From the NCBI RefSeq assembly GCF_002854065.1, contig NZ_CP024147.1: a stretch of DNA of 64,000 nucleotides. One strand, 5' to 3'. Position 1 is the stretch's first letter, and each line of letters begins with the position of its first letter. Shown here one piece after another: positions 54,420 to 61,197 of this stretch. This stretch comes from Escherichia coli. GTDB taxonomy: Bacteria; Pseudomonadota; Gammaproteobacteria; Enterobacterales; Enterobacteriaceae. The position numbers and the translations under genes are program-made. The notes beneath the pieces are model-generated. The model did not search any database and was not told the origin of the DNA. It saw only the letters and a program-made list of their open reading frames with translations.

Positions 54420-55541
54420 ATGAAGTATATAGCAACATCTGTAGTGGCAATGCTGCTCTTATCTGGTTGTGATAATACGCAAAGTAACAATTCATCCCCG
54501 TCAGAAACAGAAGTCGGCGTTGTTACAGTCAAATCTCAACCGGTCTCGGTAGTCAGTGAATTAACCGGACGCACCAGTGCTGCGCTCAGTGCCGAAGTAC
54601 GTCCGCAGGTTGGGGGAATTATCCAGAAACGCTTATTTAAGGAGGGTGATCTGGTCAAGGCTGGACAGCCGCTCTACCAGATTGATGCGGCCAGTTATCA
54701 GGCTGCATGGAATGAAGCTTGGGCAGCATTACAACAAGCACAGGCACTGGTAAAAGCCGATTGCCAGAAAGCGCAGCGTTATGCCCGACTGATGAAAGAG
54801 AACGGTGTTTCACAACAGGATGCTGATGATGCTCAGTCTACCTGTGCACAAGATAAAGCCAGTGTAGAGGCGAAAAAAGCCGCACTGGAAACTGCGCGCA
54901 TTAATCTTGACTGGACCACGGTAACCGCACCGATTTCAGGGCGCATTGGCATTTCGTCGGTAACCCCTGGCGCACTGGTGACCGCGTCGCAAGATACAGC
55001 GTTAACGACTATTCGTGGTCTGGATACAATGTATGTCGACCTCACTCGCTCCAGTGTCGATTTATTACGTCTGCGTAAACAGTCACTGGCGACCAACAGT
55101 GACACCATGAGCGTCTCACTTATTCTGGAAGATGGCACAACCTACAGCGAAAAAGGGCGTCTGGAACTCACCGAAGTCGCTGTAGATGAGTCTACCGGTT
55201 CGGTGACATTACGGGCGATTTTCCCCAATCCACAACAGCAGTTATTACCGGGAATGTTTGTTCGCGCTCGTGTCGATGAAGGCGTGATGGAAGACGCTAT
55301 TCTCGCGCCGCAACAGGGCGTCACGCGCGATGCTAAAGGCAATGCAACTGCGCTGGTGGTGAATAAAGACAATAAAGTAGAGCAGCGAACGCTCGAAACG
55401 GGAGAAACATATGGTGATAAATGGCTGGTGCTAAACGGCCTGCACAACGGCGACCGACTGATTGTTGAAGGTTCTGCAAAAGTCACTTCAGGGCAGACGG
55501 TCAAGGCTGTTGAAGTTCAGGCTAATGGAGGCAACGCCTGA
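54420..55541 (+). CDS. RND-efflux periplasmic adaptor lipoprotein, AcrA/MexA family (373 aa)
   Basis: Start placed at ATG 54420 (MKYIATSVVAMLLLSGC, lipobox LSGC) with GGAGA upstream; extensive similarity to AcrA as remembered (VGVVTVK..., ETARINL..., LPGMFVRARV..., ILAPQQGVTRD...). Confidence 0.9.
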   Translation: MKYIATSVVAMLLLSGCDNTQSNNSSPSETEVGVVTVKSQPVSVVSELTGRTSAALSAEVRPQVGGIIQKRLFKEGDLVKAGQPLYQIDAASYQAAWNEAWAALQQAQALVKADCQKAQRYARLMKENGVSQQDADDAQSTCAQDKASVEAKKAALETARINLDWTTVTAPISGRIGISSVTPGALVTASQDTALTTIRGLDTMYVDLTRSSVDLLRLRKQSLATNSDTMSVSLILEDGTTYSEKGRLELTEVAVDESTGSVTLRAIFPNPQQQLLPGMFVRARVDEGVMEDAILAPQQGVTRDAKGNATALVVNKDNKVEQRTLETGETYGDKWLVLNGLHNGDRLIVEGSAKVTSGQTVKAVEVQANGGNA

Positions 55542-58500
55542 TGTTTTCGCGCTTTTTTGTTCGCCGCCCGGTCTTTGCCTGGGTTATCGCCATTTTGATT
55601 ATGTTGGCGGGGATTCTGGCTATTCGCACATTGCCCGTCGCGCAATATCCTGACGTTGCGCCACCGACCATTAAAATTTCAGCCACTTATACTGGTGCTT
55701 CTGCCGAAACGCTGGAGAACAGCGTGACTCAGGTTATCGAGCAACAACTCACTGGGCTTGATAATTTACTCTATTTCAGCTCAACCAGCAGCTCTGATGG
55801 TTCGGTCAGTATTAATGTGACCTTTGAACAAGGTACCGATCCAGATACTGCACAGGTTCAGGTGCAGAATAAAATTCAGCAGGCGGAGTCGCGCCTACCC
55901 AGCGAAGTGCAGCAAACGGGTGTTACGGTGGAGAAATCACAAAGCAACTTTTTGCTGATTGCTGCCGTGTATGACACCACTGACAAAGCCTCCAGTTCGG
56001 ATATCGCCGACTGGTTGGTTAGTAACGTTCAGGACCCGCTGGCGCGTGTTGAAGGTGTGGGGAGTCTGCAAGTCTTTGGCGCGGAATACGCTATGCGCAT
56101 CTGGCTTGACCCGGCCAAACTGGCGTCTTACTCGCTAATGCCTTCAGACGTGCAAAGTGCTATTGAAGCGCAAAACGTGCAGGTTACTGCCGGGAAAATA
56201 GGGGCATTGCCTTCACCGAATACTCAGCAACTGACCGCAACGGTACGTGCGCAGTCTCGCTTGCAGACGGTGGATCAGTTCAAAAATATTATCGTGAAAA
56301 GCCAGTCAGACGGCGCAGTTGTTCGTATAAAAGATGTGGCTCGCGTTGAGATGGGCAGTGAAGATTATACCGCTATCGGCAAACTTAACGGTTACCCGTC
56401 TGCCGGGGTTGCTGTAATGCTTTCGCCCGGTGCGAATGCGCTGAATACGGCGACGCTGGTCAAGGATAAGATTGCCGAATTCCAGCGGAACATGCCGCAG
56501 GGATACGACATCGCTTACCCGAAAGACAGCACTGAATTTATTAAAATCTCTGTAGAGGACGTAATTCAGACGCTGTTTGAAGCCATCGTATTGGTGGTTT
56601 GCGTGATGTATTTATTCCTGCAAAACCTGCGTGCCACACTGATTCCGGCGTTAGCTGTCCCCGTCGTTTTGCTGGGCACATTCGGCGTTCTTGCGTTGTT
56701 TGGCTATTCGATTAATACCCTGACGTTGTTTGCAATGGTGCTGGCGATCGGCTTGCTGGTGGACGATGCCATTGTGGTAGTGGAGAACGTCGAACGCATT
56801 ATGCGTGACGAAGGGTTGCCCGCGCGTGAAGCCACGGAAAAATCAATGGGCGAGATTTCTGGCGCACTGGTTGCCATTGCGCTGGTGTTGTCAGCCGTAT
56901 TCCTGCCTATGGCCTTCTTTGGGGGATCTACGGGGGTAATTTATCGTCAGTTTTCGATAACCATTATCTCCGCAATGCTGCTTTCCGTGGTGGTGGCATT
57001 GACCTTGACTCCCGCCCTGTGCGGTTCCGTCCTCCAGCATGTTCCGCCACATAAAAAAGGCTTTTTCGGCGCATTTAACCGCTTTTACCGCCGTACTGAA
57101 GATAAATATCAGCGAGGCGTAATTTATGTCCTGCGCCGTGCTGCTAGAACGATGGGGCTTTATCTCGTATTGGGTGGTGGAATGGCCCTGATGATGTGGA
57201 AACTGCCGGGCAGTTTCTTACCCACTGAAGACCAGGGCGAAATCATGGTGCAGTACACGCTGCCGGCCGGGGCGACCGCTGCCCGTACAGCAGAAGTGAA
57301 TCGCCAGATTGTTGACTGGTTCCTGATTAACGAGAAAGCAAATACCGATGTCATTTTTACCGTTGATGGTTTCAGTTTTAGCGGCAGCGGACAGAACACC
57401 GGGATGGCGTTTGTTTCGTTGAAAAACTGGTCTCAACGTAAAGGGGCAGAAAACACCGCCCAGGCTATCGCCCTACGGGCAACCAAAGAGCTGGGCACAA
57501 TTCGTGATGCCACGGTATTTGCGATGACGCCGCCAGCCGTTGATGGGCTGGGGCAAAGCAATGGTTTTACGTTTGAATTGTTAGCTAACGGTGGAACCGA
57601 TCGCGAAACACTACTGCAAATGCGTAATAAGTTGATAGAAAAAGCGAATCAAAGTCCGGAGTTACATTCTGTTCGTGCCAATGATTTGCCACAAATGCCG
57701 CAATTGCAGGTAGATATTGATAGTAATAAAGCGGTGTCATTAGGGTTGAGTTTGAATGATGTCACCGACACCCTGTCCAGTGCGTGGGGCGGTACTTATG
57801 TGAATGACTTTATTGACCGTGGTCGTGTGAAAAAAGTCTACATTCAGGGCGACAGTGAATTTCGTTCCGCGCCGTCAGACTTAGGTAAATGGTTTGTGCG
57901 CGGTAGTGATAACGCCATGACACCATTCTCTGCTTTTGCGACCACCCGCTGGCTGTATGGACCGGAAAGACTGGTGCGCTACAACGGTTCTGCAGCCTAT
58001 GAAATTCAGGGGGAAAATGCGACTGGCTTTAGTTCCGGCGATGCAATGACAAAAATGGAGGAACTGGCAAACAGTCTTCCTGCGGGAACAACCTGGGCCT
58101 GGAGTGGTTTGTCATTGCAGGAGAAACTGGCCAGCGGTCAGGCATTGAGTCTGTATGCAGTTTCTATTCTGGTGGTTTTCCTCTGCCTTGCAGCACTGTA
58201 CGAAAGCTGGTCAGTCCCGTTCTCGGTCATTCTGGTGATCCCTCTGGGGCTTCTTGGCGCGGCGCTGGCGGCCTGGATGCGTGATTTAAACAACGATGTT
58301 TACTTCCAGGTGGCGCTATTAACCACTATCGGCTTGTCGTCGAAAAACGCCATTCTGATTGTGGAATTTGCTGAAGCGGCGGTTGCAGAGGGCTATTCCT
58401 TGAGTCGTGCGGCATTACGCGCGGTGCAGACTCGTTTACGCCCAATCATCATGACCTCGCTGGCGTTTATTGCGGGGGTAATGCCGCTGGCGATAGCAAC

Positions 58501-60025: not shown

Positions 60026-60033
60026 GGAATAAT

Positions 60034-61197
60034 ATGGCTAGAGTCTCTCTTTCATGGGCATTGATTCTTGGTCTTTTAGCCGGTATCGGCCCGATGTGTA
60101 CCGATCTTTATTTGCCGGCTTTGCCGGAGATGTCTGAGCAACTGGCGGCAACCACGACCATAACGCAATTAACGCTGACTGCATCACTGATCGGTCTTGG
60201 CGTCGGACAACTGTTATTTGGCCCTCTGAGCGACAAAATAGGGCGTAAACGTCCGTTAATCTTGTCGTTGCTATTGTTTATTGTTTCTTCCATTTTGTGC
60301 GCGACAACGAACAATATTTACTGGCTGGTGGTCTGGCGTTTTATTCAAGGGATCGCGGGGGCGGGTGGTTCGGTGCTCTCTCGTTCTATTGCTCGTGACA
60401 AATATCAGGGAGTAACGTTGACCCAGTTTTTTGCGCTGTTAATGACGGTGAATGGCCTGGCACCGGTGTTGTCGCCAGTGCTGGGCGGGTACATTGTTAG
60501 CACTTTTGACTGGCGCACTTTATTCTGGGTAATGGCTGAAATTAGCACCGTATTGTTGCTGGGCTGCGTGTTATTTATTAATGAGACCTTGCCAGAAAAT
60601 AAAAGGGGCTCATCATTGCTATTAACCGGACGAAGCGTGGTGCAGAACCGCCGTTTTATGCGCTTTTGCCTGATTCAAAGTTTTATGCTGGCAGGTTTGT
60701 TTGCGTATATCGGCTCTTCGTCGTTCGTGTTGCAGAAGGAATTTGGCTTTAGTCCAATGCAATTTAGCCTGGTGTTTGGCCTTAACGGCATCGGACTTAT
60801 CATTGCTTCATGGATCTTTTCGCGTCTGGCGCGACGGATTAATGCGATGACATTGTTGCGAGGTGGCCTGATAGCGGCAATTTTGTGTGCATTGCTCACG
60901 GTCTTATGCGCATGGACACAATTGCCCATTCCGGCACTGGTGGCATTATTTTTCACTATTGCATTTTGTAGCGGCATCGGCACTGTTGGCGGGGCAGAGG
61001 CTATGAGTGCAGTAGGGACGCAGGAATCTGGAACGGCGTCTGCGTTGATGGGGATGAGCATGTTTGTCTTCGGCGGTATAGCCGCGCCATTGTCGGGATT
61101 TGGCGGAGAAACACTGTTAAAAATGAGTCTGGCAATTACGGTGTGTTATACACTGGCATTCCTGGTTGCTCTCACCAGAATCGACAATCAAAAGTAA
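60034..61197 (+). CDS. MFS drug efflux transporter, Bcr/CflA-like (387 aa)
   Basis: 12-TM MFS with motif GPLSDKIGRKRP; starts 8 nt after the outer-membrane factor stop, with AAGGA overlapping that stop. Confidence 0.88.
   Translation: MARVSLSWALILGLLAGIGPMCTDLYLPALPEMSEQLAATTTITQLTLTASLIGLGVGQLLFGPLSDKIGRKRPLILSLLLFIVSSILCATTNNIYWLVVWRFIQGIAGAGGSVLSRSIARDKYQGVTLTQFFALLMTVNGLAPVLSPVLGGYIVSTFDWRTLFWVMAEISTVLLLGCVLFINETLPENKRGSSLLLTGRSVVQNRRFMRFCLIQSFMLAGLFAYIGSSSFVLQKEFGFSPMQFSLVFGLNGIGLIIASWIFSRLARRINAMTLLRGGLIAAILCALLTVLCAWTQLPIPALVALFFTIAFCSGIGTVGGAEAMSAVGTQESGTASALMGMSMFVFGGIAAPLSGFGGETLLKMSLAITVCYTLAFLVALTRIDNQK

What the first reader, a model, noticed from the sequence alone, without database searches (positions are those of the whole stretch)
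54420..61197. RND tripartite pump and an MFS pump packed into one translationally coupled operon
The four genes are separated by -1, 3 and 8 nt (TGATG overlap adaptor/RND; ATG 3 nt after the RND stop; MFS start 8 nt after the outer-membrane factor stop with its RBS overlapping that stop). Bcr/CflA-type MFS pumps act alone in the inner membrane, so coupling one to an RND pump with its own outer channel suggests a hard-wired two-stage route: MFS from cytoplasm to periplasm, then RND from periplasm to outside. Cooperation between single-component and tripartite pumps is known, but co-expression from one operon is not the usual arrangement in the E. coli systems I know.
Basis: inference. Interest (0 to 1): 0.6.

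Follow-up and report, generated by a model that had tools for sequence, protein, structure and literature searches.

The report
Known E. coli eefRABCD efflux operon
This is the already described eefRABCD operon of non-K-12 E. coli, in which a three-part RND efflux pump and a single-component MFS pump are made from one repressor-controlled transcript. The gene packing is real, but the proposed "two-stage export line" has been tested in print and showed no synergy for the drugs tried.

Summary
Four intact genes lie head to tail with junctions of -1, 3 and 8 nt, each start preceded by a Shine-Dalgarno sequence. They encode adaptor EefA, RND permease EefB, outer-membrane factor EefC and Bcr/CflA-type MFS pump EefD. 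The unit really starts upstream, at the TetR repressor gene eefR (53705-54271). Its published operator is present exactly at 53662-53679.

The locus lies between fabI and sapF and occurs in 2376 of 5426 complete E. coli genomes. It is the published eefRABCD operon. RT-PCR across every junction, RNA-seq, EefR binding assays, and deletion and overexpression of eefABC, eefD and eefABCD have all been reported. Those data show one transcript but no synergy.

My comparison adds three points. The MFS partner is ancient: it is present in Kluyvera, Enterobacter, Klebsiella, Raoultella and Pseudocitrobacter, and in Dickeya as a divergent eefR-eefD unit. It is also dispensable: some Kluyvera keep only eefR-eefD, while Trabulsiella and E. 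cloacae keep only eefRABC. The 8-nt eefC-eefD junction is specific to Escherichia; elsewhere the gap is 45-157 nt.

Side notes are a private IS2 insertion upstream of eefR and a conserved three-hairpin leader before eefA.

The parts
53625..53652 (+). Sigma-70 promoter-like site upstream of eefR (TTTCCA, 16-nt spacer, TATAAT; 10 of 12 matches)
   Evidence: Consensus scan. It lies inside the region that a published GFP reporter showed to carry the EefR-repressed promoter (PMC12482432). The exact transcription start was not verified here.
53662..53679 (.). EefR operator palindrome TGAGAACGATCATTCTCA
   Evidence: Exact match to the 18-bp palindrome that EMSA showed to bind EefR (PMC12482432). Found in the sequence. 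The same or nearly the same 18-mer sits upstream of the orthologous loci in Kluyvera, Enterobacter, Trabulsiella, Pseudocitrobacter, Klebsiella and Raoultella.
53705..54271 (+). eefR, a TetR-family repressor (188 aa)
   Evidence: Intact ORF with an AGGAG Shine-Dalgarno sequence. PGAP annotates the same coordinates in strain CUWW06 as a TetR/AcrR family regulator. It shows only weak NCBIfam TetR-type hits. Its function as an autorepressor and repressor of eefABCD is published.
54272..54419 (+). Structured eefR-eefA spacer and eefA leader. Hairpin H1 (54292-54309) is followed by a U-run and looks like a terminator; H2 is at 54316-54339 and H3 at 54372-54393.
   Evidence: Terminator-like match. 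MFE -46.6 kcal/mol, z = -4.2, with 0 of 200 shuffles folding as well. The same three-hairpin layout, with different stem sequences, appears in five other genera. No Rfam family matches. Its function is inferred, not shown.
54420..55541 (+). eefA, the periplasmic adaptor lipoprotein (373 aa)
   Evidence: TIGR01730 scores 273.9 against a cut-off of 94.9; the best specific models are MexA and AcrA, both below their cut-offs. The lipobox LLSGC is present. The ORF is intact here, whereas the near-identical strain CUWW06 has a stop at codon 21 (C54480T).
55541..58648 (+). eefB, the RND (HAE-1) permease (1035 aa)
   Evidence: TIGR00915 scores 1550 against 940. The proton-relay residues D408, D409, K935 and T972 are present, as reported in PMC12817139. 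The start overlaps the eefA stop by 1 nt.
58652..60025 (+). eefC, the outer-membrane factor lipoprotein of the NodT/OprM type (457 aa)
   Evidence: TIGR01845 scores 371 against 210. The start lies 3 nt after the eefB stop.
60034..61197 (+). eefD, a single-component DHA1 Bcr/CflA-type MFS transporter (387 aa)
   Evidence: TIGR00710 scores 279 against 200.9. MFS motif A (GPLSDKIGRK) is at residues 63-72. The start lies 8 nt after the eefC stop, and the TAAGGA Shine-Dalgarno sequence overlaps that stop.
61202..61239 (.). Strong hairpin between the convergent genes eefD and sapF, marking the 3' end of the operon
   Evidence: MFE -28.6 kcal/mol on the + strand (z = -4.9) and -25.0 on the - strand. 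There is no clear U-run on the + strand, so termination of the eef transcript at this point is inferred.

Best explanation
The locus is the chromosomal eefRABCD operon of E. coli lineages outside phylogroups A, B1 and C. EefR binds the palindrome just downstream of its own -10 element and keeps the five-gene transcript almost silent. When EefR is lost or released, transcription runs from the eefR promoter through a structured, terminator-like leader into eefA, eefB, eefC and eefD. EefA, EefB and EefC assemble into a MexAB-OprM-like tripartite RND pump that has its own outer-membrane channel and expels substrates from the periplasm or outer leaflet across the outer membrane. EefD is an autonomous 12-helix-type Bcr/CflA proton antiporter that moves substrates from the cytoplasm to the periplasm.

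The overlapping or near-overlapping stops and starts should couple translation, so the four proteins are made together. The two pumps are therefore co-regulated members of one ancient regulon and may act in series on some still unidentified natural substrate, but each works on its own and neither requires the other.

Shown: gene content, junctions, operator, and conservation (here); single transcript, repression by EefR, and activity of each pump alone (published). Inferred: translational coupling, a role for the leader, and any serial action.
For: Sequence and family assignments. Location between fabI and sapF, and annotation of the same five genes in E. coli genomes. The locus is present in 2376 of 5426 complete genomes; 2037 of them cover at least 80% of the query. 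The exact published EefR operator is present. Published work: the operon sits between fabI and sapF in phylogroups B2, D, E, F and G; an eefD knockout slows ethidium efflux; eefABC lowers ethidium accumulation (PMC12817139). RT-PCR spans all junctions; eefA to eefD are derepressed 27- to 83-fold in an eefR mutant; RNA-seq agrees; pBReefD gives 4-fold and pBReefABC 8- to 32-fold MIC increases (PMC12482432). No promoter-like site lies just upstream of eefD. All five orthologues are linked in Kluyvera, Enterobacter hormaechei and Pseudocitrobacter and in Dickeya as eefCBA divergent from eefR-eefD. MFS relatives at or below 49% identity are stand-alone genes.
Against: The two published studies disagree on whether the pumps change antibiotic MICs at all (discussion). 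The terminator-like hairpin between eefR and eefA could mean that much of the transcription stops after eefR, and that eefABCD output depends on read-through or on an unmapped start. Translational coupling is inferred from spacing only. In other genera the eefC-eefD spacer is 45-157 nt, so coupling is not a conserved property of the system.
Confidence: 0.9

Rival explanations
1. One reading: the operon is a hard-wired, obligate two-stage export line. EefD hands substrates from the cytoplasm to the periplasm and EefABC removes them, so the pair is selected as a unit and gives multiplicative protection.
For: The genes are co-transcribed (PMC12482432). The Escherichia junction is tight. The eefD-eefABC-eefR linkage survives down to about 50% protein identity and in two different gene orders. 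Deleting eefD slows ethidium efflux even with AcrB present (PMC12817139). Serial action of single-component and tripartite pumps is an established concept (Lee et al. 2000, as cited in PMC4235344).
Against: pBReefABCD gives the same MICs as pBReefABC, so the effect is neither additive nor multiplicative. Double expression did not lower ethidium accumulation significantly more than eefABC alone. Natural loci exist with only eefR-eefD (Kluyvera) or only eefRABC (Trabulsiella; E. cloacae). Only a few substrates were tested, and in hosts that still carry other MFS pumps, so the model is weakened rather than excluded.
Confidence: 0.2
2. The linkage is co-regulation without cooperation. A TetR-MFS module and an RND module share one control region because they answer the same signal, but they handle different substrates. 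This would resemble mdtABCD, where the MFS protein MdtD/IceT is not needed for MdtABC drug resistance and exports iron citrate.
For: In Dickeya, eefR-eefD is one unit (with a 4-nt overlap) and eefABC is a separate, divergent unit sharing the intergenic palindrome. Kluyvera retains eefR-eefD alone. Either module can be lost independently. No synergy has been published. The mdtABCD precedent is in PMC4462101.
Against: Published overexpression gives overlapping drug profiles for EefD and EefABC: sanguinarine, chloramphenicol, tetracycline, erythromycin and clindamycin. Both pumps affect ethidium. The substrate ranges are therefore not obviously distinct.
Confidence: 0.35
3. EefD is an alternative inner-membrane engine that docks with EefA and EefC, forming an MFS-type tripartite pump like EmrAB-TolC, so the operon encodes two tripartite machines that share an adaptor and a channel.
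For: The only support is that eefD sits directly behind the adaptor and channel genes.
Against: EefD matches the DHA1 Bcr/CflA family (279 bits, above cut-off). It does not match the DHA2 EmrB family that works with adaptors (TIGR00711 scores 75.8 against 230). It is 387 aa, which leaves no room for a periplasmic docking domain. Kluyvera keeps it without any adaptor or channel gene. pBReefD alone confers resistance in E. coli DH5alpha.
Confidence: 0.03

Closest known systems
eefRABCD of E. coli SMS-3-5, ATCC 25922 and ATCC 35218 (Fricke 2008; Pugh et al. 2024/2026, PMC12817139; Virulence 2025, PMC12482432)
   Same: Same five genes in the same order and on the same strand. Same chromosomal site between fabI and sapF. 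The 18-bp EefR operator is identical. Nucleotide identity is 95-100% to about 2000 complete E. coli genomes annotated with the same products.
   Different: This strain carries an IS2 element 194 bp upstream of the eefR -35 element, found at this site in none of 5426 complete genomes. Its eefA is intact, unlike that of its closest sequenced relative, CUWW06. I did not align the window directly against the three reference strains.
eefABC of Klebsiella (Enterobacter) aerogenes and K. pneumoniae (Masi 2005; Coudeyras 2008; cited in PMC12817139)
   Same: The adaptor, RND permease and outer-membrane factor are orthologous. I measured 76-83%, 87% and 68-74% protein identity to K. pneumoniae and Raoultella; the published values against K. 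aerogenes are 78%, 87% and 75%. An eefD orthologue follows eefC in K. pneumoniae and Raoultella.
   Different: The Klebsiella and Raoultella loci lack eefR but keep its operator. They sit at another chromosomal site (GNAT acetyltransferase on one side, murQ-like/PTS genes on the other). The eefC-eefD gap is 45-48 nt and contains a hairpin. K. aerogenes eefABC is reported to be silenced by H-NS.
mdtABCD-baeSR of E. coli K-12
   Same: An RND efflux system and an MFS transporter gene (mdtD/iceT) lie in one operon under one regulator, and the MFS protein is not needed for the RND pump's drug resistance (PMC4462101).
   Different: MdtBC is a heteromeric RND pump that uses TolC, and no outer-membrane factor gene is in the operon. 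It is regulated by a two-component system, not a TetR repressor. MdtD is not a Bcr/CflA-type protein (from my own knowledge, not tested here).
MexAB-OprM of Pseudomonas aeruginosa
   Same: A three-gene adaptor, RND permease and NodT-type lipoprotein channel, with tightly packed genes and a local repressor. EefA's best specific NCBIfam model is MexA (399 bits). Pugh et al. note that the predicted structures are closer to Mex pumps than to E. coli paralogues.
   Different: All the specific MexA, AcrA, AcrB and AdeK models score below their curated cut-offs. The mexAB-oprM operon has no MFS gene.
Serial efflux by single-component plus tripartite pumps (MdfA, EmrE or MdtM with AcrAB-TolC; Lee et al. 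2000; PMC4235344). A metal analogue is CzcD or CzcP with CzcCBA (my own knowledge).
   Different: In those drug cases the genes are unlinked. For Eef the genes are linked, but the multiplicative effect has not been seen.

Membership tests
E. coli eefRABCD operon | Five co-oriented genes (TetR regulator, adaptor, RND permease, outer-membrane factor, MFS pump) between fabI and sapF | tested here: met
   ORFs. fabI (595 bits against 477) and sapF (586 against 452) flank the locus. PGAP annotates the same layout in the 99.97%-identical strain CUWW06. The location matches PMC12817139.
E. coli eefRABCD operon | EefR operator TGAGAACGATCATTCTCA upstream of eefR | tested here: met
   Exact 18-mer at 53662-53679. 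The published sequence is in PMC12482432.
E. coli eefRABCD operon | High nucleotide identity to the eef operons of other E. coli strains | tested here: met
   2376 genomes match. By best identity, 590 are at 99% or above and 1456 at 95-99%. A direct alignment to ATCC 25922, ATCC 35218 or SMS-3-5 was not made.
E. coli eefRABCD operon | Single transcript repressed by EefR | not testable with these tools
   Published RT-PCR, qRT-PCR and RNA-seq in ATCC 35218. Here I can only say that no promoter-like site lies before eefD and that a terminator-like hairpin lies between eefR and eefA.
RND HAE-1 permease | Family profile above its curated cut-off, and the proton-relay residues | tested here: met
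   TIGR00915 scores 1550 against 940. D408, D409, K935 and T972 are present. The AcrB, AcrD and OqxB equivalog models all score below their cut-offs, so EefB is none of those.
RND periplasmic adaptor and NodT-type outer-membrane factor | Family profiles above their cut-offs, and lipoprotein signals | tested here: met
   TIGR01730 scores 273.9 against 94.9 and TIGR01845 scores 371.3 against 210. The N-termini are MKYIATSVVAMLLLSGC and MLRRSLIFLVLLSAGC.
Bcr/CflA (DHA1) single-component MFS efflux pump | Family profile above its cut-off, and MFS motif A | tested here: met
   TIGR00710 scores 279.1 against 200.9. The Bcr, EmrD, PunC and TcaB equivalog models score below their cut-offs. Motif A, GPLSDKIGRK, is at residues 63-72.
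Bcr/CflA (DHA1) single-component MFS efflux pump | Twelve transmembrane helices | tested here: inconclusive
   A crude hydropathy scan at a strict threshold resolved only 8 peaks. A 6+6 homology model is published (PMC12817139). No dedicated topology predictor was available.
MFS-type tripartite pump (EmrB/DHA2 with its own adaptor) | DHA2 14-helix permease | tested here: not met
   TIGR00711 EmrB scores 75.8 bits against a cut-off of 230.2, and only residues 29-188 match.
Serial (two-stage) efflux pair | Multiplicative effect on resistance when both pumps are present | not testable with these tools
   Published MICs show pBReefABCD equal to pBReefABC, and the authors report little or no synergy (PMC12482432). 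The ethidium result for double expression was not significant (PMC12817139).
Translationally coupled operon | Stop and start codons overlapping or within a few nucleotides, with the Shine-Dalgarno sequence inside the upstream gene | tested here: met
   Junctions are -1, 3 and 8 nt, with Shine-Dalgarno sequences inside or overlapping the upstream ORF. Functional coupling itself was not tested. The eefD junction is 45-157 nt in other genera.

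The most novel reading that the evidence does not exclude
EefR, EefABC and EefD form an ancient regulon of the Enterobacterales whose members have stayed linked through at least one rearrangement: divergent eefCBA and eefR-eefD units in Dickeya, and a single eefRABCD unit in the Enterobacteriaceae. Only the Escherichia lineage then compacted the eefC-eefD spacer from 45-157 nt to 8 nt. That compaction would reflect selection for fixed co-production, because the two pumps act in series on a natural, probably host- or plant-derived, substrate that nobody has tested yet. 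The published lack of synergy would then come from testing the wrong compounds, or from testing in hosts that still carry redundant MFS pumps.
Probability: 0.2. Interest if true: 0.4.

Novelty: already known. Interest (0 to 1): 0.12.

Why it matters
The operon is the seventh RND system of E. coli. It is absent from K-12 but present in the B2, D, E, F and G lineages that cause most extra-intestinal infections, and eefR mutations can switch it on to give multidrug resistance in the absence of AcrB.

The comparative points added here bear on whether the two pumps truly cooperate. The MFS partner is old but dispensable, and the tight coupling is specific to Escherichia. These points could guide a better-designed synergy test. 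They do not open a new question.

Tried and rejected
1. I searched the window for the operator as printed in the discussion of PMC12482432 (TGAGAA-N5-TTCTCA) and found nothing in the locus. The real palindrome has a 6-nt spacer and is present exactly.

I obtained broader context through protein searches and contig look-ups instead.

3. The Rfam scan of 51800-61400 gave one sub-threshold chance hit (Bcj14, 23.9 bits against 59), so the eefA leader belongs to no known RNA family.

4. RNAalifold on the nine leaders gave a weak consensus (-5.6 kcal/mol), because MAFFT did not place the hairpins in register. Single-sequence folds show the shared three-hairpin layout, but I did not build a curated alignment or covariance model, so covariation is seen by eye only.

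5. A second operator-like site lies at 54388-54405 (TGAGGAGGGTATTTCTCA, 1 mismatch) just before eefA. I rejected it as an operator for two reasons. The published EMSA found that even single-base changes abolish binding. A 148-bp fragment from downstream of eefR, the same length as this spacer, did not compete. That the fragment is this spacer is my assumption.

6. I checked plasmid carriage. All three E. coli 'plasmid' records in PLSDB that hold the operon are either chromosome-sized or carry it within rnb-fabI-eef-sap chromosomal synteny, so I do not treat the operon as plasmid-borne.

7. The Coudeyras 2008 and Fricke 2008 papers could not be read. What I say about them comes from the two papers that cite them.

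8. I considered an internal promoter for eefD. The scan found none in the 3' part of eefC, and the region around the junction is unstructured (z = +1.1).

Full report
**Observation**

The window holds four intact, co-oriented ORFs at 54420-55541, 55541-58648, 58652-60025 and 60034-61197.
- TGATG, with one shared base
- TAAgttATG, a 3-nt gap
- TAAggaataatATG, an 8-nt gap

Each start has a Shine-Dalgarno-like sequence in or overlapping the preceding gene. NCBIfam places the products, above curated cut-offs, in four families: RND adaptor, HAE-1 RND permease, NodT outer-membrane factor and Bcr/CflA MFS. None reaches the cut-off of a named equivalog such as AcrA, AcrB, MexA, Bcr or EmrD.

A 188-aa TetR-family gene lies at 53705-54271 on the same strand, 148 nt upstream of the adaptor gene.

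**Identity**

Megablast of 53600-61300 against 5426 complete E. coli genomes finds the locus in 2376 of them. Nearly all hits are chromosomal, and all are annotated with the same five products. In the closest genome, CUWW06, which differs at 2 of 7701 bases, the locus lies between fabI and sapF. The same flanking genes are present in the window.

This is the eefRABCD operon. Pugh et al. (PMC12817139) describe exactly this five-gene cluster between fabI and sapF in phylogroups B2, D, E, F and G, and its absence from A, B1 and C, including K-12. A second study (PMC12482432) shows several things:
- EefR represses its own promoter by binding the palindrome TGAGAACGATCATTCTCA.
- cDNA spans every intergenic junction.
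- eefA to eefD rise 27- to 83-fold in an eefR mutant.
- RNA-seq singles out these genes.

That 18-mer is present exactly at 53662-53679, 10 nt downstream of a TTTCCA-16-TATAAT promoter-like site. EefB carries the published proton-relay residues D408, D409, K935 and T972, and EefD carries MFS motif A.

**How it works**

Published data and sequence together give this picture. EefR sits on its operator and silences one transcript, eefR-eefA-eefB-eefC-eefD. Release of EefR lets RNA polymerase read through a structured spacer into the pump genes. EefABC forms a MexAB-OprM-like tripartite pump with its own channel. EefD is a stand-alone inner-membrane antiporter. The stop-start geometry should couple translation, but this is inferred, not shown.

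I found no promoter-like site ahead of eefD, and the junction region is unstructured. A strong hairpin between eefD and the convergent sapF marks the 3' end.

The proposed checks have been done. The single transcript is confirmed. Cooperation is not.
- pBReefD alone gives about 4-fold MIC increases, pBReefABC gives 8- to 32-fold, and pBReefABCD gives the same as pBReefABC. The authors report 'little or no synergistic effect'.
- Pugh et al. saw slower ethidium efflux after deleting eefD, but no significant gain from co-expressing both pumps.
- A serial arrangement is expected to be multiplicative (Lee et al. 2000, as cited in PMC4235344).

The arrangement is also not foreign to E. coli: K-12's mdtABCD operon carries the MFS gene mdtD/iceT, which MdtABC does not need for drug resistance (PMC4462101).

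**Does the partner recur elsewhere?**

I looked at orthologous loci.

| Taxon | Gene content | eefC-eefD gap | Notes |
|---|---|---|---|
| E. albertii, E. whittamii, another Escherichia sp. | eefRABCD | 8 nt | TAAGGA kept although the spacer sequence differs |
| Pseudocitrobacter | eefRABCD | 157 nt | Spacer filled with REP-like repeats |
| Kluyvera ascorbata-type and K. sichuanensis | eefRABCD | 146 and 152 nt | Spacer filled with REP-like repeats |
| Enterobacter hormaechei | eefRABCD | 49 nt | Spacer contains a hairpin |
| K. pneumoniae | eefABCD | 45 nt | eefR gene lost, operator kept |
| Raoultella | eefABCD | 48 nt | eefR gene lost, operator kept |
| Other Kluyvera | eefR-eefD only | not applicable | No RND genes; same chromosomal neighbourhood |
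| Trabulsiella, E. cloacae | eefRABC only | not applicable | No eefD |
| Dickeya fangzhongdai | All five orthologues (49-71% identity) | not applicable | Two divergent units, eefCBA and eefR-eefD; see below |

In Dickeya, eefR and eefD overlap by 4 nt. The shared intergenic region carries the same half-sites as the E. coli operator, but spaced 10 nt apart.

MFS relatives at or below 49% identity, outside this clade, are stand-alone genes with no RND neighbour.

The linkage is therefore old and non-random, which favours a functional relationship. Either module can be lost, however, and the tight junction is a derived Escherichia feature. I rate the obligate two-stage model at about 0.2. I rate co-regulation without cooperation at about 0.35, taken as a sub-reading of the main explanation. 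A shared-adaptor tripartite MFS pump is very unlikely, because EefD is DHA1, not DHA2, and works alone.

**Novelty and score**

This is already known. The comparative architecture table, especially the Kluyvera eefR-eefD loci, the Dickeya divergent form and the Escherichia-specific compaction, is not in the papers I could read. It is an incremental addition. Interest is 0.12.

**Side observations**

1. *IS2 insertion.* A complete IS2 (1331 bp, 52101-53431) with a 5-bp target duplication (AATAT) lies between the fabI and eefR promoters, with its transposase genes pointing toward eefR. None of the 5426 complete genomes has it at this site. The rest of the window is colinear with CUWW06.
2. *eefR-eefA spacer.* It folds into three hairpins, the first of them terminator-like (z = -4.2). 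The same layout appears in five other genera with different stem sequences, including loci that lack eefR. The authors of PMC12482432 remark that sequences upstream of eefA are needed for the multi-gene constructs to work.
3. *Nonsense mutation in CUWW06.* Its eefA has a stop at codon 21, which this window lacks.
4. *Plasmid records.* The E. coli 'plasmid' records carrying eef in PLSDB are chromosome pieces. This weakens the published suggestion of plasmid-mediated spread.

Noticed in passing
window 52101-53431 (target duplications at 52096-52100 and 53432-53436): A complete IS2 (1331 bp; InsC at 52192-52557, InsD at 52515-53420; 5-bp AATAT duplication) is inserted between the fabI promoter region and the eefR promoter. 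Its transposase genes point toward eefR, and its end lies 194 bp upstream of the eefR -35 element. None of the 5426 complete E. coli genomes has an IS2 at this site. IS insertions upstream of efflux operons are known to activate them (my own knowledge), so this could alter eef or fabI expression. That was not tested.
   Followed up: partly
window 54272-54419: The eefR-eefA spacer is strongly structured (z = -4.2). It has three hairpins: H1 (54292-54309) followed by a U-run and terminator-like, H2 (54316-54339) and H3 (54372-54393). The same three-hairpin layout, with different stem sequences, is found in Pseudocitrobacter, Kluyvera, Enterobacter, Trabulsiella and Raoultella, the last of which lacks eefR. 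There is no Rfam match. It is a candidate attenuator or leader controlling eefABCD output.
   Followed up: partly
window 54480; L001 position 8881: The closest sequenced relative, E. coli CUWW06, differs at 2 of 7701 bases. One difference is C54480T, which makes a stop at eefA codon 21 (annotated as a pseudogene with an internal stop). In this window eefA is intact.
   Followed up: yes
L008 and L009 (Kluyvera) 8293-10164: In some Kluyvera genomes the locus consists only of eefR followed 141 nt later by eefD, with the operator intact and no eefABC. It sits in the same neighbourhood where other Kluyvera carry the full eefRABCD.
   Followed up: partly
L022 (Dickeya fangzhongdai) 1573-9218: All five Eef orthologues (49-71% identity) are arranged as eefCBA divergent from eefR-eefD. 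eefR and eefD overlap by 4 nt. The shared intergenic region carries TGAGAA-N10-TTCTCA, which has the same half-sites as the E. coli operator but a different spacing.
   Followed up: partly
L007 (K. pneumoniae) 3132-3149; L010 (Raoultella) 3133-3150: These loci have lost the eefR gene but keep a perfect EefR operator (TGAGAATGATCATTCTCA) about 200 nt upstream of eefA. This implies either constitutive expression or control by another factor, such as H-NS.
   Followed up: no
L017 (NZ_CP141085.1), L019 (CP054253.1), H28 (NZ_CP134663.1): The E. coli records labelled as plasmids that carry eefRABCD are either 4.9 Mb long or carry the operon within chromosomal synteny (rnb-fabI-eef-sap; L017 also shows pyrF and psp). 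They are typed non-mobilizable and list no replicon type. They look like mis-assigned chromosome fragments, which weakens the published suggestion that the operon spreads on plasmids.
   Followed up: yes
window 54388-54405: A second operator-like sequence (TGAGGAGGGTATTTCTCA, 1 mismatch) overlaps hairpin H3 just before the eefA start. Published EMSA data suggest it is not bound by EefR.
   Followed up: partly
window about 35161-35858: By colinearity with the CUWW06 annotation, an IS1 transposase lies between cysB and ymiA. Both strains share it.
   Followed up: no
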